Below are positions 36,811 to 61,339 of a stretch of 64,000 nt of DNA, piece by piece (within the stretch, counting starts at the first letter, position 1; the number at the start of each line of letters is the position of its first letter). The notes under the pieces are model-generated. The model made no database searches. It was given only the letters and a program-made list of their open reading frames with translations, and was not told the origin of the DNA. The position numbers and the translations under genes are program-made. The DNA is from a virus: the IMG/VR virus record IMGVR_UViG_3300048587_000114, positions 3,646 through 67,645 of that record. One strand, 5' to 3'.

Positions 36811-38010
36811 CTACTCTGCCGCCCGTGTTTGTCCCTTGACCGTCATAATCGGTGTATACGTGTCGGCCACATACACCAAGTCCTCTTGCAAGGCGATTAC
36901 CCGGTCAATGTCCTTATATGCGCCCGGTGCCTCATCAACGTATTCCAATCCCGCCTGTGAGTACGTCCCCGCAAGCGATGCCTGAAACTCGTTAATCGTG
37001 ATCGAACGCTTTGCTTCACCACGGCTCATGGTCCGTCCCGCGCCGTGTGAGCACGACTCAAAGCTATCGGTATTTCCCTTACCGATCACCTTGTAGCTCT
37101 TGGAACCCATGCTCCCCGGAATCAAGCCGATTTCAGAGAACCGCGCACTGGTCGCACCCTTTCGGTGCAGCACCATATCGCCGTCCAATTGTGCGTAGTT
37201 GTGTGGCGTGTCGTGAATAGTGGACTGACTGAGCACACTGGTGATGCCCCGTTCCTGAAGCACATCCGCAAATGCTGACAGAACCGCCGTCATCATACGC
37301 TCTCGGTTGAGTCGCGCATAATCAATGGCCCATTGCATATCGTGCAGATAGTTCTGTCCTTCAACCGTTTCCAGCGACAAGTGTGCGAGGTCACGCGGTA
37401 CACGGGTCTTTGTCTGCGTTACAAATTGCTCTGCCTGCTGGTTGTAGTGGTTGGCGATCCGAAGCCCGATGTGTCTGGAACCAGAGTGCAGCATGAACCC
37501 AATGAAGCCACGGTCGTTTACCTGTGCTTCAATAAAGTGGTTGCCACCACCAAGGGTACCGATCTGGTACGCCCCCTTCGTGTCCACAAGTTCTTGCAAT
37601 TCCCGCGCTCGGAGCGGTTCTAGCTTCAAGTGTCCGAGTGTGTGCGGATACTTGTGCGCGTTGAATCCCATCGGTACGGCACGCCGTACCTTCGTTGCCC
37701 ACGCCTGCCAGAAGTCCGCGTTCATCGCCTCACGGTCGAACGGCATGGTCGTTTGCGCGTGGCGCATACCACACCCAATGTCCACGCCAACCGCGTTCGG
37801 GATAACGGCCAACTCGGTCGGCAACACACAGCCGATGGTTACTCCGACGCCAAGGTGACAGTCAGGCATAACGGCAATGTGCGGACCAAGAGCCGGATGC
37901 CCCGCTGCGGCCATAAGCTGACTCATCGCCTGCGGTTCCATCTCATCCAACGGAAGCCAGCTACGAATCTCACGCCCGTTTCCACCAAGAAAGGTTGTAT
38001 AGGTTCCCAT
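36811..38010 (-). CDS. rtcB: RtcB RNA ligase
   Basis: MPDCH, VGVDIGCG, GTLGGGNHFIE, HSGSR, HNY, HRKGA, PGSMG, SHGAGR, DEAPGAYK. Confidence 0.97.
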   Translation of the reverse strand: MGTYTTFLGGNGREIRSWLPLDEMEPQAMSQLMAAAGHPALGPHIAVMPDCHLGVGVTIGCVLPTELAVIPNAVGVDIGCGMRHAQTTMPFDREAMNADFWQAWATKVRRAVPMGFNAHKYPHTLGHLKLEPLRARELQELVDTKGAYQIGTLGGGNHFIEAQVNDRGFIGFMLHSGSRHIGLRIANHYNQQAEQFVTQTKTRVPRDLAHLSLETVEGQNYLHDMQWAIDYARLNRERMMTAVLSAFADVLQERGITSVLSQSTIHDTPHNYAQLDGDMVLHRKGATSARFSEIGLIPGSMGSKSYKVIGKGNTDSFESCSHGAGRTMSRGEAKRSITINEFQASLAGTYSQAGLEYVDEAPGAYKDIDRVIALQEDLVYVADTYTPIMTVKGQTRAAE

Positions 38011-51178: not shown

Positions 51179-51601
51179 ATGCCACGACCGATGTATACCA
51201 TGCCCTCTCCGTCTGAACGGATGACGGAGGGGTATGGAAGTCAGGTGCTCAGGAAAATCGAGCGGGATATGTACCTGCTGTGGGAGGAACGGGGAATGGA
51301 GCGGATGCCGAGAGTCCTCCGGCTCCACCCCGATCTGTGGCAGGCAATCCGGATGGAGTTCACCAACCGGATTACCGAGACGTTTCATTATGTCGGAACC
51401 TATGATTCGTACCGGCGTGTGGAAACGCCGAACGTGCGGACGCTGTACGGCGACTTCTGGTTCATTGAAGATGGTGGACTGCCTATCGGGGAGTACGTCT
51501 TTGACCATTATGATGCGTGGAAGCGTCGGCATGAGCAGGAAGCGGAACTCTACGCCCGGATTGCGTGGCTAGAGCGGCGTCTGAGTGGGAGGGAACCATG
51601 A
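51179..51601 (+). CDS. Hypothetical protein
   Basis: In operon, RBS AAGGAG. Confidence 0.5.
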   Translation: MPRPMYTMPSPSERMTEGYGSQVLRKIERDMYLLWEERGMERMPRVLRLHPDLWQAIRMEFTNRITETFHYVGTYDSYRRVETPNVRTLYGDFWFIEDGGLPIGEYVFDHYDAWKRRHEQEAELYARIAWLERRLSGREP

Positions 51602-51780
51602 CCAGACCGACAGTAAAGGAAGCTCTGATTGCGTTTTTCGCGGCGGTACCGGTTAGTCTGATGATTGCCATAGACGTCGCGGCGTTCTTCTGGTGGTCCC
51701 TGATCCTCTTGGTCGTGCTTGGTGTCATCCTGTGCGGATTCTGGAAGATCGGGGAACTTGTCGAAAGGTACCTTGACTGA
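51598..51780 (+). CDS. Small membrane protein
   Basis: Two hydrophobic segments; ATGA coupling. Confidence 0.55.
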   Translation: MTRPTVKEALIAFFAAVPVSLMIAIDVAAFFWWSLILLVVLGVILCGFWKIGELVERYLD

Positions 51781-52040
51781 TGCGAGACTTCAGCTATCGC
51801 CGCCCGTGGGAGAACCAGACGGCGCAATGCCCCGCGTGTGGAAGTACCGCTGTGTTTACTGACCGGGATCAGCCCGAAGTGGACACCACGGAAACGAACA
51901 AGCTCTATCCGATTGGGGGAGGGCCGACGAGATATATCGGAACGCTCATCTTCTGGAAACCGTGCATGAGTTGCCGGGACCGCTTGGAATGGTGTGTATC
52001 AGCGGAAGCCCTTGACACGCAGCCGAGACGTGGTGTATAG
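51780..52040 (+). CDS. Zn-ribbon hypothetical protein
   Basis: CPACGS...CMSC. Confidence 0.5.
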   Translation: MRDFSYRRPWENQTAQCPACGSTAVFTDRDQPEVDTTETNKLYPIGGGPTRYIGTLIFWKPCMSCRDRLEWCVSAEALDTQPRRGV

Positions 52041-52041
52041 T
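52012..52041 (+). promoter_or_regulatory. Promoter of tRNA array
   Basis: TTGACA-N18-TATAGT. Confidence 0.65.
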
Positions 52042-52153
52042 ACCTACATCGCCGCAATGGAGCGGTTGCAATGCCCGACGACGCACTACGTTATCGGGCA
52101 TTAGCGTCTCCACCGGCCCTTAACAATCAAACAGGCACATCCTGTGTGCATAC

Positions 52154-52227
52154 TTGGGTGTCGTTCAATGGTAGGACACGTCGCTGTTAACGATGGTATT
52201 GGGGTTCGAATCCCTGCACCCGAGCCA
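52154..52227 (+). tRNA. tRNA-Asn(GTT)
   Basis: Cloverleaf, CGTCG-CTGTTAA-CGATG, CCA end. Confidence 0.9.
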
Positions 52228-52229
52228 AT

Positions 52230-52304
52230 GGGAAGGTAGCGTAATGGAAACGCGGCTCTCTCCAAAAGAGTCAGATGGGGGTTCGAATCCTCTCCGTCCC
52301 GCCA
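52230..52304 (+). tRNA. tRNA-Trp(CCA)
   Basis: GCTCT-CTCCAAA-AGAGT, CCA end. Confidence 0.88.
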
Positions 52305-52305
52305 A

Positions 52306-52379
52306 TGCTTTGTCGGCTAACGGTAGGCCGCTTCGCTCTGGACGAAGTTGTTGTGGTTCGAATCCACACGAAGCAACCA
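52306..52379 (+). tRNA. tRNA-Gln(CTG)
   Basis: CTTCG-CTCTGGA-CGAAG, CCA end. Confidence 0.9.
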
Positions 52380-52387
52380 GAAACCCC

Positions 52388-52416
52388 TTGACAACGAATC
52401 AAGGGTATGCTAAAGT
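52388..52416 (+). promoter_or_regulatory. Internal tRNA-array promoter
   Basis: TTGACA-N17-TAAAGT with extended -10 TG. Confidence 0.6.
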
Positions 52417-52561
52417 AGATACAGTGGAAATGAGGAACGAGACGAACACAGAAATCGAGCCGAAAGGATAACGATGATGTAACCGCTCAACTCACTTCTT
52501 TGAGGGCTGTGCCGTGCAGGTCGCGGTGCATAAGGAACCGGTAAGCACCGGGAACCCAAAT

Positions 52562-52636
52562 GTCGGGGTAGCTCAGTGGTAGAGCACTTGTCTCATAAGC
52601 AAGAACGCATGGGTTCGAATCCCTTCCCCGCCACCA
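52562..52636 (+). tRNA. tRNA-Met(CAT) (Ile2 not excluded)
   Basis: CTTGT-CTCATAA-GCAAG, CCA end. Confidence 0.85.
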
Positions 52637-52752
52637 GAGGTTCGCAGCGTTCCGTGATAAACTGCGTGTGGACGTGCGATTCACATAAAATAAAGAGCAC
52701 AGACCCCGCAGACACGATGCGGGACGGGGTTGCAAACCTGTCGAAAAATCGG

Positions 52753-52823
52753 GCCGGGTTGATGTAGGTGGACTGGCATATCCCCCTGAAGGGGAAAGCG
52801 TGGGTTCGACTCCCACACCGGAG
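52753..52823 (+). pseudogene. Degenerate tRNA-like element
   Basis: Good T arm GTGGG-TTCGACT-CCCAC and TCCCC-CTGAA-GGGGA arm, poor acceptor stem. Confidence 0.45.
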
Positions 52824-52824
52824 T

Positions 52825-52923
52825 TTGCTCGTAGGACAATTGGCAGTCTAACCGTGTAAATCGGGGGCGTACGACCTTGGAGGCACGGACATGTTGCAGG
52901 TTCGAACCCTGCCGAGCAAGCCA
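52825..52923 (+). ncRNA. tRNA-like RNA with 27-nt anticodon loop
   Basis: Acceptor TTGCTCG/CGAGCAA, D arm GGAC/GTCT, CCGTG/CACGG stem, T arm GCAGG-TTCGAAC-CCTGC, G+CCA. Confidence 0.75.
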
Positions 52924-53025
52924 CCCGCGATCTGACCAATTGCGGGGAGAGTCGCGGTTCGGCGGGAGTCGTAACCCAATGAACCCCCTGACCGGGCAGG
53001 GATGGAGTAACGATCCACCCGGTAT

Positions 53026-53098
53026 TTCGCAGTAGCTCAGGGGTTAGAGCACATCTCTGATACAGATGGTGCCGGTGGTTCGATTCCACCCTGCGGAA
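53026..53098 (+). tRNA. tRNA-Ile(GAT)
   Basis: CATCT-CTGATAC-AGATG; no encoded CCA. Confidence 0.85.
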
Positions 53099-53227
53099 CT
53101 GAGGCCGGTGAAGCCTGCGATGCGAAGCGTCGAGAGTACGACGATAGTACCGCGAAGATACCTCGGGTCGGCACCCTATGATACGTGTCGTGGGCCGCTG
53201 GCAATAGCCTGTGTATGAGGCCCGAAT

Positions 53228-53300
53228 GCTGGCATACGCTAATCGGCAGGCGAACGCTCTTTCAAAGCGTTGTGTGCGAGTTCGACTCTCGCTGTCAGTA
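53228..53300 (+). tRNA. tRNA-Glu(TTC)
   Basis: ACGCT-CTTTCAA-AGCGT. Confidence 0.85.
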
Positions 53301-53450
53301 CCGGGTAGATGTACTACCCTTTACAAATCACCGTGTCTCTGGCCGCACTCCCTGTGGTACGACCTGTTCGGTGCAAGCCCGAACGAAAAGCCCCGGACTA
53401 ACCAACCGGGCACGCCCCGGATACATCCCAAATCCGCTCCGGGGCACCTT

Positions 53451-53523
53451 GCCGGGATCGTCTAGCGGTCTAGGACGTATGGTTCTCAGCCATGCAGCCG
53501 GGGTTCGAATCCCCGTCTCGGTA
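53451..53523 (+). tRNA. tRNA-Glu(CTC)
   Basis: TATGG-TTCTCAG-CCATG. Confidence 0.85.
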
Positions 53524-53645
53524 CGAGCCTTGGGCTTCGGCGTAAAACTGCCCACGACCTGAGTATAACGTCGTTAAACTCGCTCCGGAGGATACGTCCT
53601 CCGTCTGGACCTGTAGCTCAATCGGGAGAGCGTCGGTACTGGTAT

Positions 53646-53719
53646 GGGAGATTTGCATAATGGAAGTGCTCTTGGCTTACATCCAAGAAGCGGTGGTTCG
53701 ATTCCATCATCTCCTACCA
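53646..53719 (+). tRNA. tRNA-Val(TAC), nested inside the split tRNA
   Basis: CTTGG-CTTACAT-CCAAG, CCA end. Confidence 0.88.
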
Positions 53720-53738
53720 GTTTCAAGGAGAGTAAATA

Positions 53739-54161
53739 GTGCCAATGCCATACAAACCGAGAGCGGAATGTAAACGCTGCGGGGCTCTGGTAAAGTTTAC
53801 AAAAACGGTTTTCTGTAGTCAGGAATGCCAAATTACACATAAGCGAGAAACCTATCTCGCTCGGTGGAAGTCTGGACAGGAAAAAGGCTACGGAAAGTAC
53901 GGGCAACTGTCTAACACGATTCGGGAGTATATCTTGAAGCGTGCCGGGTATCAATGCGAGGAATGTGGGTGGCACAAAAAGCATCCCGTTACTGGTAGCG
54001 TACCGGTGGAGGTACACCATAAAGACGGTGACTATGCAAATACGCATGAGGGCAATCTGATTGTTCTGTGCCCAAACTGCCATTCACTTACTCCTAACCA
54101 CGGAGTTTATAATAAAGGGAAGGGAAAACCGTATATTCGCCTTGCAAAAGCAGTACCGTAG
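53739..54161 (+). CDS. HNH endonuclease nested inside the split tRNA
   Basis: CEECGW...EVHHKDG...NLIVLCPNCHSLT; RBS AAGGAG. Confidence 0.9.
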   Translation: MPMPYKPRAECKRCGALVKFTKTVFCSQECQITHKRETYLARWKSGQEKGYGKYGQLSNTIREYILKRAGYQCEECGWHKKHPVTGSVPVEVHHKDGDYANTHEGNLIVLCPNCHSLTPNHGVYNKGKGKPYIRLAKAVP

Positions 54162-54248
54162 GTTCTAGGTTCGAGTCCTAGTAGGTCCACCAGTCGAAGA
54201 AGCAGGGGACATAGGGTACCCGTCTTAATAATCCTGCGGAGACTGCAT

Positions 54249-54334
54249 GGGGATGTTTTGGTGTTCGCCCGGTAGATGCGAGGGTACAACCTTGATGATC
54301 GCCGGAAACGTGGGTTCGACTCCCACCATCTCCA
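54249..54334 (+). ncRNA. Miniature tmRNA-like RNA (tRNA-like domain only)
   Basis: GGGGATG/CATCTCC with G3:U70, stemless D loop TTTTGGTGTTCGC, T arm GTGGG-TTCGACT-CCCAC, closed by a short hairpin. Confidence 0.7.
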
Positions 54335-54492
54335 CCGAGACGTTGAGCAGTCGTCTCAAAAAACAGGCTCACGGTTGATTGCACCGGGCTGTTCTCCTGC
54401 ACGGAGACGGCAAGCAATCCTAACGCTTCGGGTCCGCTGGACGGGCGGCTGTGCAGAGAGACGGTAGAAATCCCTCACCGAAGCGTTCACTT

Positions 54493-54574
54493 GGGTTGGT
54501 ATGCAAGCGGCTCAAAGCAGCGTGTCTGTAAAACACGTCCTACTGGTTCACAGGTTCGAATCCTGTCCAGCCCA
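54493..54574 (+). tRNA. tRNA-Tyr(GTA)
   Basis: CGTGT-CTGTAAA-ACACG, long variable arm. Confidence 0.88.
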
Positions 54575-54583
54575 CCGGAGGCA

Positions 54584-54841
54584 ATGATGCGATTTGCTGA
54601 ACAGAACGTAGAAATCGAATCGCTCTACATTTCGCTGGCAATTCTGACTATCGGCATCTATGCAGCCGTGTCATCAGACGATCCAGAGGAAATGAAGCAA
54701 CAACTGAAGAATGCCGCCGTGCATGCACAAGCGGCCTTCCCTGAGCCGTACCACACGGTACTCATGGAGAAGATCGGAGAGCATGCGTTTCGGGATGACG
54801 TCGAGCAGACGCGTCCGCAATATCACACTGAGGGCCGATAG
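54584..54841 (+). CDS. Hypothetical protein
   Basis: RBS GGAGG; stop codon lies inside tRNA-Ala. Confidence 0.55.
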   Translation: MMRFAEQNVEIESLYISLAILTIGIYAAVSSDDPEEMKQQLKNAAVHAQAAFPEPYHTVLMEKIGEHAFRDDVEQTRPQYHTEGR

Positions 54842-54903
54842 CTTAACGGGAAAGCTACTACCTTGCACGTAGTCAGATTGGGGTTCGAATCCCCATTGGT
54901 CCA
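54832..54903 (+). tRNA. tRNA-Ala(TGC)
   Basis: ACTAC-CTTGCAC-GTAGT, G3:U70. Confidence 0.9.
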
Positions 54904-54927
54904 CCGAGTAGGTGAAAGGAGAACACG

Positions 54928-55206
54928 TTGCCTATTCTTTCGTCAGTGAAACAAAAGACCAAGGTTTCGACCAGTTCAACGATTGAAACGACACTGGAAG
55001 CGAAACTCGCAGAAGTCGCGGAACTGACAGAGCAACTTGAAGCAACCGCTGTGCAAGAGATTGACGCATCGAATCAGTCGATTGCTGATCTTGAATCGCG
55101 GATTGCAGCAATTCAACAACGGAAGATGATTGCCAAGGGACGTATCGAACGAGCGGCACAAACCAGAGCGTTGTTCCAACCCGTTCCTCCGGTACAAACC
55201 AAGTAA
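54928..55206 (+). CDS. Coiled-coil hypothetical protein
   Basis: RBS AAGGAG, TTG start. Confidence 0.55.
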   Translation: MPILSSVKQKTKVSTSSTIETTLEAKLAEVAELTEQLEATAVQEIDASNQSIADLESRIAAIQQRKMIAKGRIERAAQTRALFQPVPPVQTK

Positions 55207-55240
55207 TGATCTTTTGATGGTGATGCAAGGAAGTGATACC

Positions 55241-55621
55241 GTGCAGCTAGTATGCAACCAGTGTGAGAAATCATACAAAGCAGAAAAGAGAACGTCGAAA
55301 TACTGTTCCCGAGCTTGCAGCAACACGGCACGCCGAGGGATGACGTATTCGAAAGACTCTCACGGTAACAGTTCCAGACAACGCCTTAATTTGCTGAAAA
55401 ACACGTTCAACTTTACCGAGTGTATGGTAGAGGGTTGTGGCTATACAAAAACGTTTGACATTCACCGATATATACCCGGTAAATTGGGTGGAGAATATGT
55501 CATCGGCAATATGTATGCTATTTGCCCAAACTGCCATGCAGAAGTATCTCGGGGAATTGTAACGTTTGAAAAAGTAGACGATAAAACACTTCGGATCAGT
55601 GGGGTAACGGTAGCCCAATAG
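55241..55621 (+). CDS. HNH endonuclease
   Basis: CNQC...YCSRAC; CMVEGC...DIHR...ICPNCHAE; stop lies inside tRNA-Ser; start uncertain. Confidence 0.8.
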   Translation: MQLVCNQCEKSYKAEKRTSKYCSRACSNTARRGMTYSKDSHGNSSRQRLNLLKNTFNFTECMVEGCGYTKTFDIHRYIPGKLGGEYVIGNMYAICPNCHAEVSRGIVTFEKVDDKTLRISGVTVAQ

Positions 55622-55675
55622 TCTTGAAAACTATCTAACCGAAAGGTTATGTGAGTTCAAATCTCACCTGATCCT
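55593..55675 (+). tRNA. tRNA-Ser(TGA)
   Basis: ATAGT-CTTGAAA-ACTAT, long variable arm. Confidence 0.85.
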
Positions 55676-55679
55676 CCGT

Positions 55680-55765
55680 GGACGATTGGGATAAGGGTAT
55701 TCCAGAGGGTTGCTATCCCTCCCAACCGCAAGGTTGTGTGCGTTCGAATCGCACATCGTCCTCCA
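55680..55765 (+). tRNA. tRNA-Ser(GCT)
   Basis: GAGGG-TTGCTAT-CCCTC, long variable arm, CCA end. Confidence 0.88.
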
Positions 55766-55788
55766 TCTGAGAAAAGGTTTATATACGC

Positions 55789-56121
55789 ATGCCAAAAGTT
55801 ATAAAGTATGCCGACTACATTCCTTTGTGGAAGGCGGGACTTGTAAGCGGAAATCGCGGTATAATACATATAGACGTCTCTGCGAATGTGCGCCGTTACT
55901 TGCTTGAAAGGTGCGGAAATACGTGTGAAGAATGCGGTTGGGGCGCGATAAATCCGTTTACCGGAAAAGTAACACTTGAAGTTCATCACATTGATGGAGA
56001 CTATCAGAACAGCAGAGAAGAAAACTTAAAAGTGCTCTGCCCAAACTGTCACTCTTTAACCTATAACTATAGAGCAAGAAATAAGTCCGGGTTGGCACAA
56101 AGCCTACCCAAGAAAAGGTAA
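55789..56121 (+). CDS. HNH endonuclease
   Basis: CEECGW...LEVHHIDG...NLKVLCPNCHSLT. Confidence 0.9.
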   Translation: MPKVIKYADYIPLWKAGLVSGNRGIIHIDVSANVRRYLLERCGNTCEECGWGAINPFTGKVTLEVHHIDGDYQNSREENLKVLCPNCHSLTYNYRARNKSGLAQSLPKKR

Positions 56122-56125
56122 TCAT

Positions 56126-56200
56126 CGGGGTTTAGCGTAAGGGTTAGCGCACGTCGTTTGGGACGATGTGGACAGGTTTCGAGTACCTGATCCCCGACCA
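56126..56200 (+). tRNA. tRNA-Pro(TGG)
   Basis: CGTCG-TTTGGGA-CGATG, CCA end. Confidence 0.88.
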
Positions 56201-56217
56201 CGGGAAGGAGAAACCGT

Positions 56218-56307
56218 ATGAACTGGAACCTGATTGCAGCGATTTTCTTGGGCGTATTCTTTGCGCTCCTTGCATGGGCACTATTGACCGATCAAATCGT
56301 TCTCTAA
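56218..56307 (+). CDS. 29-aa membrane peptide
   Basis: RBS AAGGAG; MNWNLIAAIFLGVFFALLAWALLTDQIVL. Confidence 0.55.
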   Translation: MNWNLIAAIFLGVFFALLAWALLTDQIVL

Positions 56308-56316
56308 GGAGGGAAT

Positions 56317-57093
56317 GTGGTTCAGATTAACCGTGAGGGGCCAAAAGTCTTTTTGGTCGGGTATACACAGCCGGTCATGCCAGAAATCCGCCGCTATCTA
56401 GATCATCGCGGTGTGAAATGGATTACGGAGAATCCGAAGGATGATCCACTGGCGATTGTTGAAATGGCAGGCCGTGTGTGCTACCACAGTTGGCGGAATC
56501 CGCAAGGGCGGACACGTCAGGAATATATTGCCGAGCAAATTATCGGGCATGAGCATGGAAGCGTGCTCGAACACGTCTGGTTCAATATGCTGGTGGCAGA
56601 CCTTCCCCGAAGTTCGCAGCTTGAATTGGTGCGACATGGGGAAGGAACGGGATTTAGTTTCGAAAGTCAACGGTTTACGGACGCTCATCTACGATTCGTG
56701 GTTCCACCACGGCTACGGGAGGACGACGATGCCATTGCACTCTTTACAAGCGCGGCGAATCTCGCACAAGACTACTACACAGCGTTGCAGGCACTGTCGG
56801 GGTCCGACTCCGATGAAGGAACGCTTGCACGGAAACGCATCAAGGAAGCAGCACGGGCTGTGCTCCCGAATGCCGCTGGAAGCGACGGTATGGTAAGCAT
56901 GAATGGCCGTGCCGCACGGCACATCATTAATCTGCGATCCAACGAACATGCGGACCTCTCAATCAGAGAGTTTGCATGGGAAGTGTATCAGGCGATTTCA
57001 GATGTTGCTCCGGCACTCTTTGCCGACGCAACCGTGAACTATGGAGCGAGTGACGGGATTCCGTCTGTCTCGTTCGAACATCCGAAGGTCTAG
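56317..57093 (+). CDS. thyX: Flavin-dependent thymidylate synthase
   Basis: AGRVCY, HGSVLEH, ELVRH...SQR, EAARAVLPN. Confidence 0.9.
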   Translation: MVQINREGPKVFLVGYTQPVMPEIRRYLDHRGVKWITENPKDDPLAIVEMAGRVCYHSWRNPQGRTRQEYIAEQIIGHEHGSVLEHVWFNMLVADLPRSSQLELVRHGEGTGFSFESQRFTDAHLRFVVPPRLREDDDAIALFTSAANLAQDYYTALQALSGSDSDEGTLARKRIKEAARAVLPNAAGSDGMVSMNGRAARHIINLRSNEHADLSIREFAWEVYQAISDVAPALFADATVNYGASDGIPSVSFEHPKV

Positions 57094-57160
57094 GAGAATG
57101 CACGGGCCGTCAGACTACTGCACATCGTAAGAACAGGCCCGGAGACGCGTCCGGGCACAT

Positions 57161-57234
57161 TCAGGGATCGGTTAACGGTAGGCCGATGGTCTTTGGAACC
57201 ATCTGTATAGGTTCGAATCCTATTCCCTGATCCA
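57161..57234 (+). tRNA. tRNA-Gln(TTG)
   Basis: ATGGT-CTTTGGA-ACCAT, CCA end. Confidence 0.9.
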
Positions 57235-57235
57235 T

Positions 57236-57324
57236 GCCCTTCTGGTGGAACTGGCAGACACGACGGCCTCAAACGCCGGAGCCGAGGGATCGGCGTACAG
57301 GTTCAAGTCCTGTGAGGGGTACCA
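57236..57324 (+). tRNA. tRNA-Leu(CAA)
   Basis: CGGC-CTCAAAC-GCCG, long variable arm, CCA end. Confidence 0.85.
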
Positions 57325-57325
57325 C

Positions 57326-57354
57326 TTGACAAGTAGTCGGAAATCGGGTATACT
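57326..57354 (+). promoter_or_regulatory. Internal tRNA-array promoter
   Basis: TTGACA-N17-TATACT. Confidence 0.8.
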
Positions 57355-57375
57355 GATTTCAGTGAAGGAGACGAG

Positions 57376-57615
57376 ATGCCGAAGATCGCATTTATCAAAT
57401 GGGACACAGGCGACTGGATTCAGATGTACGTCAACGGGGAGAAAGTCTATGAAGGACATTCGATCCCAAGAGACGAACTTCTGAGACTGGCCGGAGTAGA
57501 GTTCGACTCCTACGAAATCCTCGGAGAGAGCGATGAAGCGGAAATGATCGGTTGGTCGGGAAAGTCCCTTGACGAAGCACTTGTCATTGTGAACGACGTA
57601 CTAGTGTGTTACTAG
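57376..57615 (+). CDS. Hypothetical protein
   Basis: RBS AAGGAG; GDWIQMYVNGEKVYEGHS. Confidence 0.6.
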   Translation: MPKIAFIKWDTGDWIQMYVNGEKVYEGHSIPRDELLRLAGVEFDSYEILGESDEAEMIGWSGKSLDEALVIVNDVLVCY

Positions 57616-57622
57616 TACACAT

Positions 57623-57707
57623 GCGTGGGTGGTGGAACTGGTATACACGCTAGTCTTAGAAACTAGTGCCCGAGAGGGCGTGATGGGTTCGAATCCCTCC
57701 CTGCGTA
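57623..57707 (+). tRNA. tRNA-Leu(TAG)
   Basis: CTAGT-CTTAGAA-ACTAG, long variable arm. Confidence 0.88.
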
Positions 57708-57833
57708 CCGTAGCCAAGCGCCTCTCCCGAGAGAGCCGACCATGAATCGTTAGTCTCGGTGAAGCAATTCGGGCTGGAAAGACGGATGCATACGGTGAGC
57801 CAGCAGTTATGTCCGGACTCAATCGGGCACATA

Positions 57834-57901
57834 GGATATGTGTAGCTCAATTGGCAGAGCACCGTCTAAAACCGGAGATTCGGTTTAAGTCCGACACTTC
57901 C
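57834..57901 (+). pseudogene. Degenerate tRNA
   Basis: Canonical D arm TAGCTCAATTGGCAGAGC, shortened anticodon arm, T loop TTTAAGT, bulged acceptor stem. Confidence 0.55.
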
Positions 57902-57906
57902 CTCAT

Positions 57907-57978
57907 GCTGATGTAGCTCAGTGGTAGAGCGTCTGATTGAAGTCCAGATGGTCGGCGGTTCGAATCCGCCTGTCAGCA
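57907..57978 (+). tRNA. tRNA-Phe(GAA)
   Basis: TCTGA-TTGAAGT-CCAGA. Confidence 0.85.
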
Positions 57979-58103
57979 CCGGTCGAATAATCCGATAGAC
58001 CAAAAGAACCGGAGCGTTACTCACACGCTTGCAAGCCAGATATGGTGCGACGGTACGGGTTGAGATTTCTGATTTCGGCCAAATGACGTACGCATTTGGC
58101 AAC

Positions 58104-58179
58104 ATCCCTGTGGTATAATGGACAGTGCAGCACGTTTCTACCGTGCAAGGTGCGGGTTCGAATCCTGCCGGGGATACCA
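58104..58179 (+). tRNA. tRNA-Arg(TCT)
   Basis: GCACG-TTTCTAC-CGTGC, CCA end. Confidence 0.88.
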
Positions 58180-58180
58180 C

Positions 58181-58254
58181 GGTCGCATAGCTCAATTTGG
58201 GAGAGCACCGGCTTGTCACGCCGGAGGTTGCGGGTTCGATCCACGTCGTGACTG
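58181..58254 (+). tRNA. tRNA-Asp(GTC)
   Basis: CCGGC-TTGTCAC-GCCGG. Confidence 0.82.
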
Positions 58255-58287
58255 CTAACAACTAACCTATCAAAACGGAGGTTAAGC

Positions 58288-58716
58288 ATGGGTAATGTGA
58301 AAAAGGCGGAAACACTCGGTATGCCGCATGGCACGGCTACAAATCGCTTACGTAAACAGTTGTTATTTAAGTATGTCTGTCTTGCAGGAGACAATATATG
58401 TTATAAGTGTAAGAATATAATAGAACTGATTGACGATTTATCTATTGAACACATTAAACCGTGGGAGGGTAGGTCCGCAGAACTATTTTGGGATTTGAGT
58501 AATATAGCGTTTAGTCATATCTCTTGTAATAGACCGCACGTTAACGGAGCGGTAAGACGCCGGATAAGTTTAGATGGTGATGTTTTTCGTTGTTGTTCAT
58601 GTAAACAGACGAAAGAACGGTCGAATTTTGGTATAAGCAGTAGTCGATGGAATAATGTGCAGTCAGAATGTAAAGATTGTCGTAATAAACGCCCGAGAGT
58701 GCGTCAGTCGTCGTGA
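58288..58716 (+). CDS. HNH-like endonuclease
   Basis: CYKC...SIEHIKPW...NIAFSHISCN; C-terminal CCSC...CKDC. Confidence 0.75.
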   Translation: MGNVKKAETLGMPHGTATNRLRKQLLFKYVCLAGDNICYKCKNIIELIDDLSIEHIKPWEGRSAELFWDLSNIAFSHISCNRPHVNGAVRRRISLDGDVFRCCSCKQTKERSNFGISSSRWNNVQSECKDCRNKRPRVRQSS

Positions 58717-58735
58717 TCGCCAGTAGCTCGTTTTT

Positions 58736-58810
58736 GCCGGTGTAGTGTAAAGGAAAACACGCAACGCTTCGAACGTTGTAGTGCGGGTTCGAGTCCTGCC
58801 AGCGGCACCA
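58736..58810 (+). tRNA. tRNA-Arg(TCG)
   Basis: CAACG-CTTCGAA-CGTTG, CCA end. Confidence 0.88.
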
Positions 58811-58825
58811 CGGAAAGGGTACGGT

Positions 58826-59086
58826 ATGCAAGTCGAAGTCATGTACCGGGAGCCTGATACGTACCCGGCAATTCACTGGAACGGCCATAACAGTGCTGAT
58901 GTGCAAGCGTGGCTGGATCGGAATCTTCGTTTGTCGGGGGACTACGATAATCAATATTGTGTGCGGAATAATGTTCTCTATCTTGGAATGTATACCCTTC
59001 CGGTGAATACGTGGTTGGTGGCTGACGGGAGCGTGCAGGACTTTACCGAAAGGGAATTTGCAAGTATATTTCTTGTCGTTTCCTAA
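58826..59086 (+). CDS. Hypothetical protein
   Basis: AIHWNGHN...NTWLV...EFASIF. Confidence 0.55.
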   Translation: MQVEVMYREPDTYPAIHWNGHNSADVQAWLDRNLRLSGDYDNQYCVRNNVLYLGMYTLPVNTWLVADGSVQDFTEREFASIFLVVS

Positions 59087-59093
59087 GTTCTAT

Positions 59094-59166
59094 GGTGTTT
59101 ATGGCCGAGCGGTCTAGGCGCATGCCTGTGGAGCATGTTACACGGGTTCGAACCCCGTTAGGCACC
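59094..59166 (+). tRNA. tRNA-His(GTG)
   Basis: CATGC-CTGTGGA-GCATG, G-1:C73. Confidence 0.88.
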
Positions 59167-59172
59167 CTGAGT

Positions 59173-59246
59173 GAGCGGTTGGCCGAGTGGTTAGGCGCGT
59201 CTCTGCAACAGACAGGACAGCGGTTCGAATCCGCTACCGCTCTCCA
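59173..59246 (+). tRNA. tRNA-Cys(GCA)
   Basis: GTCT-CTGCAAC-AGAC, U73, CCA end. Confidence 0.88.
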
Positions 59247-59247
59247 C

Positions 59248-59319
59248 GCCTTTGTAACTCAATGGTAGAGTAAGCGTCTTTTAAACGCGAAGTTGTGGGT
59301 TCGAATCCCACCGGGGGCA
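59248..59319 (+). tRNA. tRNA-Lys(TTT)
   Basis: GCGT-CTTTTAA-ACGC. Confidence 0.85.
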
Positions 59320-59321
59320 CT

Positions 59322-59498
59322 ATGGTACACGTTGTCGGTGTATTGGCGTTGCTTGTCGGGATGATTGTTCTCTGTCGGCACAGCCTGCATGACACACAAC
59401 TCCTGATGGACTTGGAGGGTATTGCCATTTTTGTCCTGATGGTGTACTGTGTACTTCGACTGTATGGTGTGAAACTCGCTTTTGTAGCTCAATGGTAG
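59322..59498 (+). CDS. Small membrane protein
   Basis: Two hydrophobic segments; weak RBS; stop lies inside tRNA-Lys(CTT). Confidence 0.35.
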   Translation: MVHVVGVLALLVGMIVLCRHSLHDTQLLMDLEGIAIFVLMVYCVLRLYGVKLAFVAQW

Positions 59499-59549
59499 AG
59501 CAAGGCTCTCTTAAAGCCGGGGTTGGTGGTTCGAATCCACTCAGGAGCA
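59478..59549 (+). tRNA. tRNA-Lys(CTT)
   Basis: GGCT-CTCTTAA-AGCC. Confidence 0.85.
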
Positions 59550-59669
59550 CGGCTCAATGCGGTGAACAGGTAAAGCTTCCGTGTGGTTGTCCCGACTTCC
59601 ACCCCCAAAGGCCACGGGGACAATAGTTTGCGGCACGTACCGGCGCGTGTGGGAAAACACCGGAACCCT

Positions 59670-59743
59670 GTCAGTGTGACCGAGTGGTTAGGTGCTTGCC
59701 TTCCAAGCAATGAACGCGGGTTCGATTCCTGTCACTGACTCCA
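59670..59743 (+). tRNA. tRNA-Gly(TCC)
   Basis: TTGC-CTTCCAA-GCAA, U73, CCA end. Confidence 0.88.
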
Positions 59744-59760
59744 TGTGCTACGGAGAACCA

Positions 59761-60069
59761 ATGAACGGTTTAGACTACACAAAATACATTACACTATGGA
59801 AAGCTGGACATGTAGATGGTAGCCGTGGTAAAGTAGGAGTGTCTAAACACGTTCGCCGTTATTTGTTTGAGAAATACGATAATAAGTGTGCTGTTTGCGG
59901 CTGGTGTGAAACACATCCGATAACTGGTGAAGTTCCACTGGAAGTACATCACATAAGCGGACACGCGAATACGGAGAGCAATCTTATTTTGCTGTGTCCC
60001 AATTGTCACAGTCTTACGGGTACCTATAGAGGTAGAAATAAGGGACACGGAAGGACAACCCGAAAATAA
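59761..60069 (+). CDS. HNH endonuclease
   Basis: CAVCGW...PLEVHHISG...NLILLCPNCHSLT. Confidence 0.9.
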   Translation: MNGLDYTKYITLWKAGHVDGSRGKVGVSKHVRRYLFEKYDNKCAVCGWCETHPITGEVPLEVHHISGHANTESNLILLCPNCHSLTGTYRGRNKGHGRTTRK

Positions 60070-60070
60070 T

Positions 60071-60149
60071 GCATCTGTAGCTCACGTTGGTCCCGAGCAG
60101 CGATCTTGTAAATCGCAGGACGCAGGTTCGATTCCTGTCAGATGCTCCA
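60071..60149 (+). tRNA. tRNA-Thr(TGT)
   Basis: GCGAT-CTTGTAA-ATCGC, CCA end. Confidence 0.88.
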
Positions 60150-60150
60150 C

Positions 60151-60184
60151 TAGGTTGCGGGTTCGACTCCTGTTCGTAGCTCCA
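60151..60184 (+). pseudogene. Orphan tRNA 3' half
   Basis: AGGTT-GCGGG-TTCGACT-CCTGT-TCGTAGC-T-CCA. Confidence 0.75.
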
Positions 60185-60284
60185 AGGAAAGGACTGCACA
60201 CGCTAGTGCCCTACCCGTTATCCGTGGGTGTGGGAAACTTCAGTCGTTTCAAGTAGCGCATCAATTGGCGGCGAACGGATAAAG

Positions 60285-60313
60285 AAAAGAGCGGCCCTTC
60301 GGGGCCGCTTTTT
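60285..60313. terminator. Bidirectional intrinsic terminator
   Basis: AAAAG-AGCGGCCC-TTCG-GGGCCGCT-TTTT between convergent units. Confidence 0.85.
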
Positions 60314-60777
60314 CATGTCTGGAAAATGCTGAAGTAAATTAAAAAGAGGAACGCTCCGTAGAGCATCCACGGTTGATCCCACCGGACAACCTCCCGGCGC
60401 GACATTGATACTGAAGATGCTCGGTTTCGTCGCTTGCTTCCTCGTTTTGTCTTTCCCAAAACGCGAAGTCGTTCCTTCCGGTAGTAGGAGACTTTCGCCT
60501 GAACGGTTCGGCCCGGAATGGTCCGGGCACCTTTGGCAAGGTTGCACGTTCGGCACGACGTGACAAGGTTACGTGGGTCATCGGTTCCTCCTTTCGCCCG
60601 TGGCTTAACGTGGTCCAGTTGCAGCATGTACCGAGAGTCACAATACACGCACTTGTTATTGTCGCGTTTATAGATGCTCCGGCGCTGTTCGACACTGATC
60701 CAGTTACGGTCGTACGAGTTCGAACGTTTGTGTTTGAGTGGTAGCGTCATATGTGTACCCACCTGAAAGGGCATCAC
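60313..60777 (-). CDS. HNH endonuclease
   Basis: CVYC...LDHVKPRAKGG...NLVTSCRTCNLAKG. Confidence 0.9.
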   Translation of the reverse strand: MMPFQVGTHMTLPLKHKRSNSYDRNWISVEQRRSIYKRDNNKCVYCDSRYMLQLDHVKPRAKGGTDDPRNLVTSCRTCNLAKGARTIPGRTVQAKVSYYRKERLRVLGKTKRGSKRRNRASSVSMSRREVVRWDQPWMLYGAFLFLIYFSIFQT

Positions 60778-61339
60778 ATAGACGGAGTATGCCGTCTACC
60801 GCGTCGTTCTCGGACTGTCCGGTAAGATCAATGACGAAGTGAGCGGTGATGTTGAACTGTTCGGTTTCCGATGCGTGTGTTGTGGATCGCTTATCCGCAT
60901 TCCCACTCGCATCCTCAATATTCCGAATCAGTCGAACGATCCAGAAGCCTTGCTCACGGAGGGCGTCTGCTTCATTCACGAAGCGACAGTCATCCACAAC
61001 CACAGGACCGCTTGTCATGGAAAACGTTTGTTTCCAGCGGTTAATCCAGTGGTCGGGTTCCCCCATAAACTCTCGCCAAAAATCTGTTCCGTACCATTGC
61101 AAGAGCGGTCCAAACGTCGTCTTTTTGAACTGTTCGATGGTAGCCTTGTTCAGAGAGGACGGATTCGGGCTGTGTCCCCGAAGCGTGTGTTGCTTGACCA
61201 CATAATCAAGCATGTCAGCACAGTCCTGTTTGACCGCATCGGCAAAGGCAAGTCGCTGATGCCCGCGATGCTGAACAAGGGCGTTGGCAATCGTTGTCTT
61301 TCCAACGCCATACGGCCCGATAAAAGCGAAGTGACGCAC
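60704..61339 (-). CDS. Deoxynucleoside monophosphate kinase
   Basis: GPYGVGKT, FADAVK, LQWYGTD..R, VDDCRFVNE, HASE. Confidence 0.88.
   Translation of the reverse strand: MRHFAFIGPYGVGKTTIANALVQHRGHQRLAFADAVKQDCADMLDYVVKQHTLRGHSPNPSSLNKATIEQFKKTTFGPLLQWYGTDFWREFMGEPDHWINRWKQTFSMTSGPVVVDDCRFVNEADALREQGFWIVRLIRNIEDASGNADKRSTTHASETEQFNITAHFVIDLTGQSENDAVDGILRLCDALSGGYTYDATTQTQTFELVRP

What the first reader, a model, noticed from the sequence alone, without database searches (positions are those of the whole stretch)
53607..54192. Nested tRNA: a tRNA gene whose anticodon loop holds a whole second tRNA plus an HNH gene
Seen: a 5' half GGACCTG-TA-GCTC-AATCGGGA-GAGC-GT-CGGTACTG (53607-53641) and a 3' half CAGTACCG-TAGGTT-CTAGG-TTCGAGT-CCTAG-TAGGTCC-ACCA (54151-54192). 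They form a full 7-bp acceptor stem and intact D and T arms. An 8-bp helix CGGTACTG/CAGTACCG, longer than a normal 5-bp anticodon stem, closes a roughly 510-nt insert containing complete tRNA-Val(TAC) and an HNH ORF whose stop lies in the 3' half. ACTGGTA (53638-53644) can alternatively pair with TACCAGT (53715-53721), which would hide the inner tRNA's CCA end. The insert leaves no room for a group I/II intron core. Known: RtcB joins 2',3'-cyclic phosphate or 3'-P ends to 5'-OH ends of tRNA halves, and this genome encodes one. Inference: either a protein-spliced or two-piece tRNA released when the inner tRNA is processed, or an HNH+tRNA cassette that homes into tRNA anticodons. Both halves being undecayed suggests selection or a recent event. 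The anticodon cannot be assigned.
Basis: partly seen in the sequence, partly recalled or inferred. Interest (0 to 1): 0.92.

Follow-up and report, generated by a model that had tools for sequence, protein, structure and literature searches.

The report
HNH-plus-tRNA cassette splitting a phage tRNA-Val
A mobile piece of DNA carrying a homing-type HNH nuclease gene and its own valine tRNA has landed in the anticodon loop of a phage's resident valine tRNA gene and destroyed it, so the "tRNA inside a tRNA" is a fresh insertion scar and not a spliced or two-piece tRNA.

Summary
Window 53607-53637 and 54154-54192 are the two parts of one tRNA gene. Between them lie 516 nt holding a complete tRNA-Val(UAC) (53646-53719, 60.1 bits) and an HNH ORF (53739/53745-54161) whose stop codon lies in the 3' part.

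The decisive result is. Contigs from two soil runs match the flanks with 2 differences in 183 nt and 3 in 249 nt, but carry only six letters (GTTACA) in place of the 516 nt. A more distant contig from a wastewater run has 13 letters there. ARAGORN calls both uninterrupted forms tRNA-Val(tac), 76 nt.

So the outer gene was a tRNA-Val(UAC). The insert replaced loop positions 32-37, including the anticodon. No joining of the halves could restore a decoding tRNA. The inner tRNA is the same isoacceptor and the genome's only Val tRNA.

The HNH belongs to a family that lives in phage tRNA arrays: 71 of 80 related loci hold tRNAs. At least five other loci show tRNA genes split around this HNH, three of them with a nested tRNA.

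Verdict: a homing-endonuclease cassette insertion, recent and polymorphic. It is a new variant of the known homing endonucleases of tRNA arrays (T4 SegB, T5 F-Tfl). The spliced or two-piece tRNA reading is rejected.

The parts
53607..53637 (+). 5' remnant of the resident (outer) tRNA-Val(UAC) gene: tRNA positions 1-31 (acceptor strand, D arm, 5' strand of the anticodon stem)
   Evidence: Read. It is the left side of the joint in the X1 and X2 contigs, which end their match at 53637. ARAGORN places the start of the uninterrupted allele at 53607.
53638..54153 (+). 516-nt insert (the mobile cassette). It is absent from near-identical contigs, which hold six letters here instead.
   Evidence: table 5: the joint 53637->54154 skips 516 nt in X1 (side 183) and X2 (side 20). 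Table 5c gives 6 letters between the sides.
53638..53645 (+). 8-nt leader of the cassette (ACTGGTAT). Seven of its letters are complementary to the last acceptor base, the ACCA end and 2 further nt of the inner tRNA (53715-53721).
   Evidence: Read. The function is unknown.
53646..53719 (+). Inner tRNA-Val(UAC) with encoded CCA. It is the only tRNA-Val gene of the genome.
   Evidence: ARAGORN; RF00005 60.1 bits; 26 tRNAs and a single Val in the 67,645-nt genome.
53720..53744 (+). Spacer holding a Shine-Dalgarno-like AAGGAG (53724-53729) ahead of the HNH start
   Evidence: Read. No sigma-70-like promoter was found inside the cassette on the + strand (a weak scan).
53739..54161 (+). HNH endonuclease ORF, 140 aa from GTG at 53739. 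The likelier start is ATG at 53745, which matches the start of the closest homologue P0001. The last 8 nt (54154-54161: the third letter of the Val codon, the Pro codon and the stop TAG) lie in the outer tRNA's 3' remnant.
   Evidence: ORF. PHROG 1271 'HNH endonuclease', E 5.8e-18. Pfam HNH 19.9 bits, under its 21.4 cut-off. All 17 invariant columns of an 18-sequence alignment are present, including C73, C76, H94, N106 and C111-P-N-C-H115. P0001 alignment.
54154..54192 (+). 3' remnant of the outer tRNA-Val(UAC): positions 38-76 (last loop letter, 3' strand of the anticodon stem, variable loop, T arm, acceptor strand, A73, CCA)
   Evidence: Read. It is the right side of the joint in X1 and X2, starting at 54154. 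ARAGORN ends the uninterrupted allele at 54192.

Best explanation
A 516-nt mobile cassette sits in the anticodon loop of the phage's resident tRNA-Val(UAC) gene. It consists of an 8-nt leader, a complete tRNA-Val(UAC), a short spacer with a ribosome-binding site, and a free-standing HNH homing-type endonuclease gene. It replaced loop positions 32-37, including the anticodon.

Shown:
- The filled allele (this window) and the empty allele (contigs of other samples) both exist.
- The borders of the insert are exact.
- The empty allele is a normal tRNA-Val(UAC).
- The outer halves are unchanged relative to the empty allele.
- The inner tRNA is the genome's only Val tRNA.
- The HNH family habitually sits in phage tRNA arrays, and other tRNA genes are split around it at the edges of the anticodon loop.

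Inferred:
- The HNH enzyme cuts the DNA of intact tRNA genes at or near the anticodon loop.
- The break was repaired by copying in the HNH gene together with its neighbouring tRNA-Val.
- The inner tRNA-Val has a different anticodon stem, so it escapes cutting and takes over decoding. That would make the insertion nearly free of cost.
- The array is transcribed as one precursor. RNase P and 3' processing release the inner tRNA, the HNH is translated from the stretch behind it, and the outer halves are discarded as leader and trailer.

The outer 'nested' tRNA is a young scar. It is not a functional gene.
For::
- X1 record 3 (438 nt) matches window 53455-53637 (2 other letters), then 6 letters, then 54154-54402 (3 other letters).
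- X2 record 9 (317 nt) matches 53618-53637, the same 6 letters, then 54154-54444.
- X3 record 14 (295 nt, a different study) matches 53516-53634, then 13 letters, then 54158-54320.
- None of the 28 pieces listed from the four runs (29 more are not shown) covers 53741-54139, and the depth there is 0 in all four runs.

Other calls:
- ARAGORN at default settings calls both uninterrupted forms tRNA-Val(tac), 76 nt, spanning 53607-54192.
- the genome has 26 tRNAs and one Val, the inner one.
- the protein is an HNH with all family-invariant residues.
- 305 of 588 candidate stretches in IMG/VR encode relatives and the best 80 were kept. Of those 80 loci, 71 hold tRNA genes, and in 34 a same-strand tRNA starts within 10 nt of the HNH stop.
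- the relatives found in cultured phages (all under 60% identity; the 25 listed reach at most 47%) lie in the tRNA arrays of a T5-like Klebsiella phage and of Enterococcus phage iF6.
- tRNA genes are split around this HNH in L006, L026, L034, L047 and L055. L026, L034 and L047 also hold a complete inner tRNA. The clean L026 junction 2229|2981 is called tRNA-Ile(tat).
- (T4 SegB paper, abstract and one passage): homing endonucleases of tRNA arrays that recognise tRNA-gene DNA are an established kind.
Against: - No enzyme activity, cut site or homing event has been shown for this HNH.
- Pfam's HNH model scores below its cut-off (19.9 against 21.4 bits).
- The empty alleles come from short contigs (295-438 nt) of coded public runs. 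X1 and X2 belong to one study, so they are not independent.
- The donor arrangement is unknown.
- In the other three nested cases the inner tRNA is not the isoacceptor of the broken one (L026 is Arg in Ile; L034 is Gly, L047 is Ala). The 'replacement copy' idea may therefore be a coincidence here, with roughly 1 chance in 26.
- The 7-bp complement between the cassette's leader and the inner tRNA's CCA end is not explained.
Confidence: 0.85

Rival explanations
1. This is a functional split or spliced tRNA. Processing of the inner tRNA cuts the precursor, and the outer halves pair through the 7-bp acceptor stem and the 8-bp helix, or are joined by RtcB, to give a working tRNA or tRNA-like RNA.
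For: The halves are intact and pair 7/7 in the acceptor stem. Joined bodies are tRNA-like in 290 of 396 junctions. RtcB is encoded in the genome.
Against: The anticodon and five neighbouring loop letters of the ancestral gene are gone and stand at neither junction. ARAGORN with introns allowed does not call the gene. There is no intron core. The intactness of the halves is explained by youth, since the flanks differ from the empty allele at only 5 of 432 positions. RNase P leaves a 3'-OH, which is not an RtcB substrate (established knowledge, recalled). The inner tRNA already covers Val(UAC).
Confidence: 0.03
2. The insert arrived by a route that did not need the HNH, such as illegitimate recombination between tRNA arrays or another element. 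The HNH would then be a passenger or inactive.
For: No activity has been shown. Pfam HNH is below its cut-off. No flanking direct repeat longer than 4 nt is seen.
Against: The same HNH family stands in the gap of five other split tRNA genes in unrelated contigs. All family-invariant catalytic and zinc residues are kept. The ORF runs in frame into the 3' remnant and ends there.
Confidence: 0.08
3. This is an assembly artefact: a chimeric contig that wrongly nests one tRNA region inside another.
For: tRNA arrays are repeat-like and the record is a metagenome assembly. None of the four laid runs covers the HNH.
Against: The ORF is continuous across the right junction. An independent 74%-identical protein of the same length ends in the same two residues. 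The contig closes with 127-nt terminal repeats. The same nested layout is seen in three unrelated contigs.
Confidence: 0.03

Closest known systems
T4 SegB (GIY-YIG homing endonuclease in the T4 tRNA gene cluster; PMC2330249, abstract and one Discussion passage)
   Same: It is a free-standing endonuclease gene inside a phage tRNA array. It recognises tRNA-gene DNA and drives inheritance of itself and neighbouring tRNA genes. Its ORF ends at the 5' end of the next tRNA, as I see in 34 of 80 loci of the present HNH family.
   Different: The nuclease fold differs (GIY-YIG against HNH). The SegB site lies in the T-psi-C stem-loop motif, whereas here the insertions lie at the anticodon loop. SegB sits between intact tRNA genes, whereas here the cassette lies inside a tRNA gene and destroys it.
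[quoted passage not shown] 2004; seen only as a citation and one sentence and a reference, the paper itself not read)
   Same: They are HNH ORFs within the tRNA cluster of a phage. Relatives of the window's HNH (about 40% identity) lie in the tRNA array of a T5-like Klebsiella phage.
   Different: I did not test whether the window's protein is orthologous to any of the three. No nested or split tRNA is reported in what I saw.
Group I introns with homing endonuclease genes in bacterial tRNA anticodon loops (review PMC3984707 and preprint 10.1101/2020.01.27.920355; search listings only)
   Same: The insertion is in the anticodon loop of a tRNA gene and holds an endonuclease ORF.
   Different: There is no ribozyme core: no Rfam group I or II match at E<=1, and only about 35 nt of the insert are neither tRNA nor ORF. 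Loop letters are lost, so no splicing could restore the tRNA. The cost is instead covered, if at all, by a second tRNA gene.
Split and permuted tRNA genes of Archaea (review PMC4090602; search listing only; details recalled)
   Same: Two tRNA halves lie apart on the DNA with a complementary helix at the break.
   Different: Those halves together hold every nucleotide of the mature tRNA and are joined by a splicing endonuclease and ligase at a bulge-helix-bulge motif. Here six nucleotides including the anticodon are missing.
Aeromonas phage Aeh1 MobE insertion that splits the nrdA gene (recalled; MobE is mentioned in the passage, the paper not read)
   Same: A free-standing HNH homing endonuclease gene is inserted inside a host gene of a phage without any intron.
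   Different: There the two protein pieces still assemble into a working enzyme (recalled). Here the split gene is dead and a second, complete gene rides in the insert.

Membership tests
HNH (His-Me finger) endonuclease | Beta-beta-alpha-metal motif with catalytic His, structural Asn and the zinc-binding CxxC pairs | tested here: met
   PHROG 1271, E 5.8e-18. H94, N106, C73/C76 and C111/C114-H115 are invariant in 18 of 18 aligned sequences. A profile hits the McrA HNH domains 6ghc and 5zmm at E 7.9e-4 and 4.8e-3. Pfam PF01844 scores only 19.9 bits against a 21.4 cut-off.
Homing endonuclease gene (mobile, free-standing) | Presence/absence polymorphism at one exact site between otherwise near-identical genomes | tested here: met
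   the joint 53637->54154 in X1 and X2, with flanks differing at 2 of 183 and 3 of 249 positions.
Homing endonuclease gene (mobile, free-standing) | The enzyme cuts the empty allele site-specifically and the filled allele is immune | not testable with these tools
   This needs purified protein and DNA substrates. See next steps.
Homing endonuclease gene (mobile, free-standing) | The same element sits at the same site in diverged genomes (a cognate homing site) | tested here: inconclusive
   P0001 (74% identity) has the same length and ends in the same two residues, which here are encoded in the tRNA remnant. Its contig could not be fetched. No closer relative was found in the viral, metagenome or genome collections.
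tRNA (outer gene, as it stands in the window) | A complete cloverleaf with a 7-nt anticodon loop and an anticodon | tested here: not met
   It is not called by ARAGORN with or without introns nor by RF00005 at E<=1. Loop positions 32-37 are replaced by the insert.
tRNA (outer gene, empty allele in other samples) | A complete cloverleaf with an anticodon | tested here: met
   ARAGORN default: tRNA-Val(tac), 76 nt, for both the X1/X2 form and the X3 form.
tRNA (inner gene) | A covariance-model score above the Rfam gathering threshold | tested here: met
   RF00005 60.1 bits against 29. ARAGORN calls Val(tac).
Group I / group II intron | A conserved catalytic core detectable by the Rfam models | tested here: not met
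   No such match at E<=1 in window 51500-61000, nor at E<=10 in L006, L026 and L055.
Split or intron-bearing tRNA joined by protein enzymes (archaeal type) | The two exons together contain all nucleotides of the mature tRNA | tested here: not met
   Six letters of the empty allele are absent from both junctions of the window.
RtcB RNA ligase (context gene) | A match to PF01139 above its cut-off | tested here: met
   245.9 and 68.8 bits in one 401-aa open frame, at window 36811-38010 (-).

The most novel reading that the evidence does not exclude
This HNH family homes into the DNA of tRNA anticodon loops without any intron, and the cassette brings along a complete tRNA gene. In this window the passenger is a cut-resistant copy of the very isoacceptor it destroys. 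That would be a third way, besides self-splicing introns and inteins, for a homing endonuclease to make an insertion into a gene harmless. Repeated rounds of it would drive breakage, replacement and turnover of tRNA genes in phage arrays. The nested layouts in L026, L034 and L047 and the half-duplicated tRNA-Val in L027 would be other outcomes of the same process.
Probability: 0.45. Interest if true: 0.65.

Novelty: new variant of a known kind. Interest (0 to 1): 0.5.

Why it matters
Phage tRNA arrays are now seen as counter-measures against tRNA-cutting host defences, and homing endonucleases are known to move and amplify them (search listing for PMC13096335; T4 SegB).

This locus gives a natural filled/empty pair with base-exact borders for an uncharacterised HNH. 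That turns 'what does this nuclease cut?' into a direct bench test, with the anticodon arm of tRNA-Val(UAC) as the predicted target.

It also shows that tRNA genes in phage arrays are broken and replaced by such cassettes. That explains orphan tRNA halves and 'nested' tRNAs that annotation pipelines miss or could misread as introns.

It removes a more exotic claim, that of a protein-spliced or two-piece bacterial-virus tRNA.

Tried and rejected
Relatives by DNA:
- blastn of 53300-54500 against cultured phages gave no match.
- An exact 32-nt 5' part, an exact 38-nt 3' part and a 41-nt stretch of the inner tRNA in viral contigs gave 0 matches each.
- The 38-nt and 35-nt 3' parts in metagenome contigs gave 0 matches each.

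Relatives by protein:
- The HNH alone and ThyX alone in viral contigs gave none.
- The two-sequence alignment A2 gave only 3 distant loci in viral contigs and none in genome contigs.

Other dead ends:
- Relatives of the L026 nested locus: only its own contig was found.
- Earlier findings of this scan: nothing to show.
- RNA evidence: no RNA holder was listed. X3 and X4 are labelled RNA-Seq cDNA but the tool rates them as probably DNA, so nothing is claimed about expression.
- Parts of the window without contig cover (53114-53284 and 53741-54139) are not used as evidence of absence beyond the joints themselves.
- Other joints (X4 53631->54160 with 18 letters and side 21; X3 and X4 53631->54310 with 23 letters) look like other organisms' tRNAs aligned on conserved arms and were set aside.
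- X4 record 23 (53619-53681, 10 other letters in 63) might be a diverged relative with the same left junction. It ends at the contig end and could not be examined.
- The MFE fold of 53607-54192 gave a long rod of no use for tRNA questions.
- The promoter and terminator scan was not above shuffles.
- My 'orphan 5' half' motif alone proved too loose (many hits). Only T-arm orphans and pairs with 7/7 acceptor pairing were used.

Readings dropped:
- Reading the 5' part as Thr(GGU) from the loop-like CTGGTAT.
- Reading the outer tRNA as a CAT-type tRNA from body similarity.

Literature: six searches found no description of a tRNA nested with an HNH gene in another tRNA's anticodon loop. ('split tRNA' + bacteriophage + homing endonuclease) and one search returned 0 papers. 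Subscription journals and supplements were not searched, and the T5 paper (Akulenko 2004) was not read.
Full report
WHAT IS THERE

The window is bases 3646-67645 of a 67,645-nt IMG/VR virus record with direct terminal repeats (127 nt by my script). Its right part holds 26 tRNA genes, all on the + strand, between 52154 and 60149. The whole genome has the same 26.

At 53607-53637 I read the acceptor strand, D arm and 5' anticodon-stem strand of a tRNA. At 54154-54192 I read the last loop letter, the 3' anticodon-stem strand, the variable loop, the T arm, the matching acceptor strand, A73 and CCA. The acceptor stem pairs 7 of 7, with one G-T pair.

Between the two parts lie:
- a complete tRNA-Val(tac) at 53646-53719 (RF00005 60.1 bits);
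- a 140-aa ORF at 53739-54161 whose TAG stop lies inside the 3' part.

IS IT MORE THAN CHANCE

I scanned for a 5' acceptor plus D arm that pairs 7/7 with a T arm plus 3' acceptor lying 130-1600 nt away. It found this pair alone on the + strand of the 64-kb window and nothing on the - strand.

I joined the two parts in a script at 396 junction combinations. The body was called a tRNA in 290 of 396 at a relaxed ARAGORN threshold, and every row visible in the truncated output starts at 53607. The interrupted gene itself is not called, even when introns of up to 700 nt are allowed. No group I or II intron model matches at E<=1.

THE DECISIVE RESULT

A search of public runs listed 17 rows that hold parts of 53400-54400, the best holding 0.24 of the sampled words, and none on record as RNA. 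I laid the Logan contigs of four of them on 53000-54700.

- In soil run X1, one 438-nt contig matches 53455-53637 with 2 other letters, then has six letters (GTTACA), then matches 54154-54402 with 3 other letters.
- In X2, from the same study, a 317-nt contig shows the same joint and the same six letters.
- In X3, a wastewater run of another study, a 295-nt contig matches 53516-53634 (8 other letters), has 13 letters, and resumes at 54158-54320 (2 other letters).
- None of the 28 pieces listed for the four runs (29 more are not shown) covers the HNH, and the depth over 53741-54139 is 0 in all four runs.

I built both uninterrupted forms in a script from window slices plus the reported letters. 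ARAGORN at default settings calls both tRNA-Val(tac), 76 nt, from 53607 to 54192. In the X3 form the anticodon stem differs on both strands and still pairs.

None of the five differences between the X1 contig and the window lies in the tRNA parts (tables 3 and 8).

WHAT FOLLOWS

- The outer gene was a normal tRNA-Val(UAC).
- The window's allele is derived. A 516-nt insert (53638-54153) replaced loop positions 32-37.
- The six lost letters, including the anticodon, stand at neither junction. The empty allele therefore cannot arise from the filled one by deletion, and no cutting and joining of the transcript could give back a decoding tRNA.
- The halves are 'undecayed' because the event is young.

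THE CARGO

The ORF is an HNH endonuclease:
- PHROG 1271, E 5.8e-18;
- distant profile matches to McrA-type HNH domains in the PDB;
- all 17 invariant columns of an 18-sequence alignment are present, including the two CxxC pairs, H94, N106 and C-P-N-C-H115;
- Pfam's HNH model is just under its cut-off, 19.9 against 21.4 bits.

Its closest relative among 58 hits is P0001: 74% identity, on an 813-nt ENA contig, of the same length and ending in the same two residues, starting at the codon that corresponds to ATG 53745. The rest are at most 61% identical over partial alignments, and at most 53% where three quarters or more of the query is covered.

The inner tRNA-Val(UAC) has a different body and a different anticodon stem from the outer one. 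It is the only Val tRNA of the genome.

THE FAMILY'S HABITS

An alignment-based scan of IMG/VR found 305 relatives among 588 candidate stretches and kept the best 80 loci.

- Of the 80, 71 hold at least one tRNA gene within about 2.5 kb. In 34, a same-strand tRNA gene starts within 10 nt of the HNH stop codon. This is the layout described for T4 segB and tRNA-Arg (passage read).
- Cultured-phage relatives (101 records, all under 60% identity; the 25 listed reach at most 47%) include one in the tRNA array of a T5-like Klebsiella phage and an unannotated one in the tRNA array of Enterococcus phage iF6.
- Five of the 80 loci show a tRNA gene split around this HNH:
  - L006: HNH only, outer Ile(GAT), break at 31/32.
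  - L026: HNH plus a complete tRNA-Arg(CCT) of 69.1 bits. The clean junction 2229|2981 is called tRNA-Ile(tat).
  - L047: HNH plus tRNA-Ala(TGC), break at 38/39, outer anticodon read as TTA.
  - L034: HNH plus tRNA-Gly(GCC). The outer 3' anticodon strand is missing.
  - L055: HNH only, anticodon stem unclear.
- Orphan T arms with an acceptor strand stand directly after the HNH in L007, L008 and L036.

Breaking tRNA genes at the edges of the anticodon loop, often with a whole tRNA as passenger, is thus a repeated outcome for this family. It is not peculiar to the window.

HOW IT MOST LIKELY WORKS

Shown: the filled and empty alleles, the exact borders, the identity of the broken gene, the intact HNH motifs and the family's association with tRNA arrays and split tRNAs.

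Inferred: the enzyme cuts tRNA-gene DNA in or beside the anticodon loop. The break in the resident tRNA-Val gene was repaired by copying the HNH gene together with its neighbour tRNA-Val from a co-infecting phage.

Two facts could be explained if the enzyme's natural target is the tRNA-Val gene next to which it lives in its donor lineage: the same isoacceptor is involved on both sides, and the passenger copy, with another stem, survives.

Selection for a replacement is the other possible reason for the shared isoacceptor, and coincidence (about 1 in 26) is not excluded. In L026, L034 and L047 the passenger is a different tRNA from the broken one.

After insertion the array is presumably still read as one precursor, since no promoter-like site lies in the cassette (a weak scan). 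RNase P and 3' trimming would free the inner tRNA. The outer halves would be leader and trailer.

RtcB needs no link to this locus. Its presence beside a large tRNA set fits repair of tRNAs cut by host nucleases; that is established knowledge, recalled and not tested here.

COMPARISON WITH WHAT IS KNOWN

Homing endonucleases inside phage tRNA arrays that recognise tRNA-gene DNA and carry neighbouring tRNA genes along are known. The examples are T4 SegB (abstract) and the T5 F-Tfl HNH enzymes (seen as a citation only). Endonuclease-bearing group I introns in bacterial tRNA anticodon loops are also known (search listings).

The present case differs from the first kind because the element lies inside a tRNA gene and kills it. 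It differs from the second because there is no ribozyme and no way to restore the tRNA.

Six literature searches found no description of such a nested tRNA-plus-HNH insertion. The library lacks most subscription journals, and supplements were closed.

I rate it a new variant of a known kind.

VERDICT

- Observation: confirmed.
- Reading (a), a spliced or two-piece tRNA: rejected.
- Reading (b), an HNH+tRNA cassette homing into tRNA anticodon loops: supported, confidence 0.85.
- Interest: 0.5. The exotic reading falls. What remains is a clean natural filled/empty pair that names a testable target for an uncharacterised homing nuclease, and a recurrent, undescribed way in which phage tRNA genes are broken and replaced.

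Noticed in passing
window 54249-54337 (+): An 89-nt element matches the tmRNA model RF00023 end to end with the whole middle missing, at 46.4 bits against a gathering score of 47. By eye it has a 7-bp acceptor stem with a G-T at the third pair and a good T arm. ARAGORN calls neither a tRNA nor a tmRNA here. It may be a tRNA-like-domain-only relic or a mini tmRNA.
   Followed up: no
window 55130-55621 (+) and tRNA-Ser 55593-55677: A second HNH ORF (163 aa; Pfam HNH 25.9 bits; PHROG 1271, E 3.4e-13; 25% identical to the first) overlaps the first 29 nt of tRNA-Ser(tga). RNase P processing of the tRNA would cut off the end of its mRNA, which is the layout discussed for T4 segB.
   Followed up: partly
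No link to the split tRNA was found.
   Followed up: partly
window 52757-52819 and 57840-57897 (+): Two sub-threshold tRNA matches (25.9 and 27.0 bits against a gathering score of 29, model positions 5-66) lie inside the array. They may be decayed or truncated tRNA genes.
   Followed up: no
L026 2199-3021; L047 2403-3014; L034 2401-2997: Three further 'tRNA inside a tRNA' loci from unrelated IMG/VR contigs, with the order outer 5' part, HNH, complete inner tRNA (Arg-CCT, Ala-TGC, Gly-GCC), outer 3' part. L026 and L047 keep every outer nucleotide (breaks at 31/32 and 38/39). L034 lacks the outer 3' anticodon strand.
   Followed up: partly
L027 1186-1680: An orphan 5' fragment of a tRNA-Val(TAC), running through the anticodon arm, is followed by an HNH ORF of another family (1260-1631) and a complete tRNA-Val(tac) (1606-1680, 67.9 bits) that has the same acceptor strand. 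The ORF overlaps the start of the complete tRNA. It looks as if the insert brought a new 5' half that rebuilt the gene.
   Followed up: partly
L003 2072-2223 and 3206-3359; L006 4320-4436, 4446-4562 and 4573-4706; L018 4321-4460; L022 2864-2961; L049 1213-1807: These tRNA genes of large phages carry ORF-less inserts of about 22 to 520 nt in the anticodon loop. Rfam's tRNA model spans the two L003 genes and the three L006 genes (42.8-59.7 bits). The three L006 inserts share a hairpin and a following motif, and the two L003 inserts share a 5' hairpin and hold a T-arm-like hairpin. No group I match was found at E<=1 (L003, L018, L049) or E<=10 (L006); L022 was not scanned against Rfam. What removes the inserts, if anything does, is unknown.
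   Followed up: no
L055 2570-2710: In this locus two Trp positions of the family (W43 nearly invariant, W78 invariant in the alignment) are encoded by TGA (read), so the contig probably uses a TGA=Trp code.
   Followed up: no
window 56317-57093 (+): A ThyX thymidylate synthase gene (PF02511, 126.7 bits) sits in the middle of the tRNA array.
   Followed up: no
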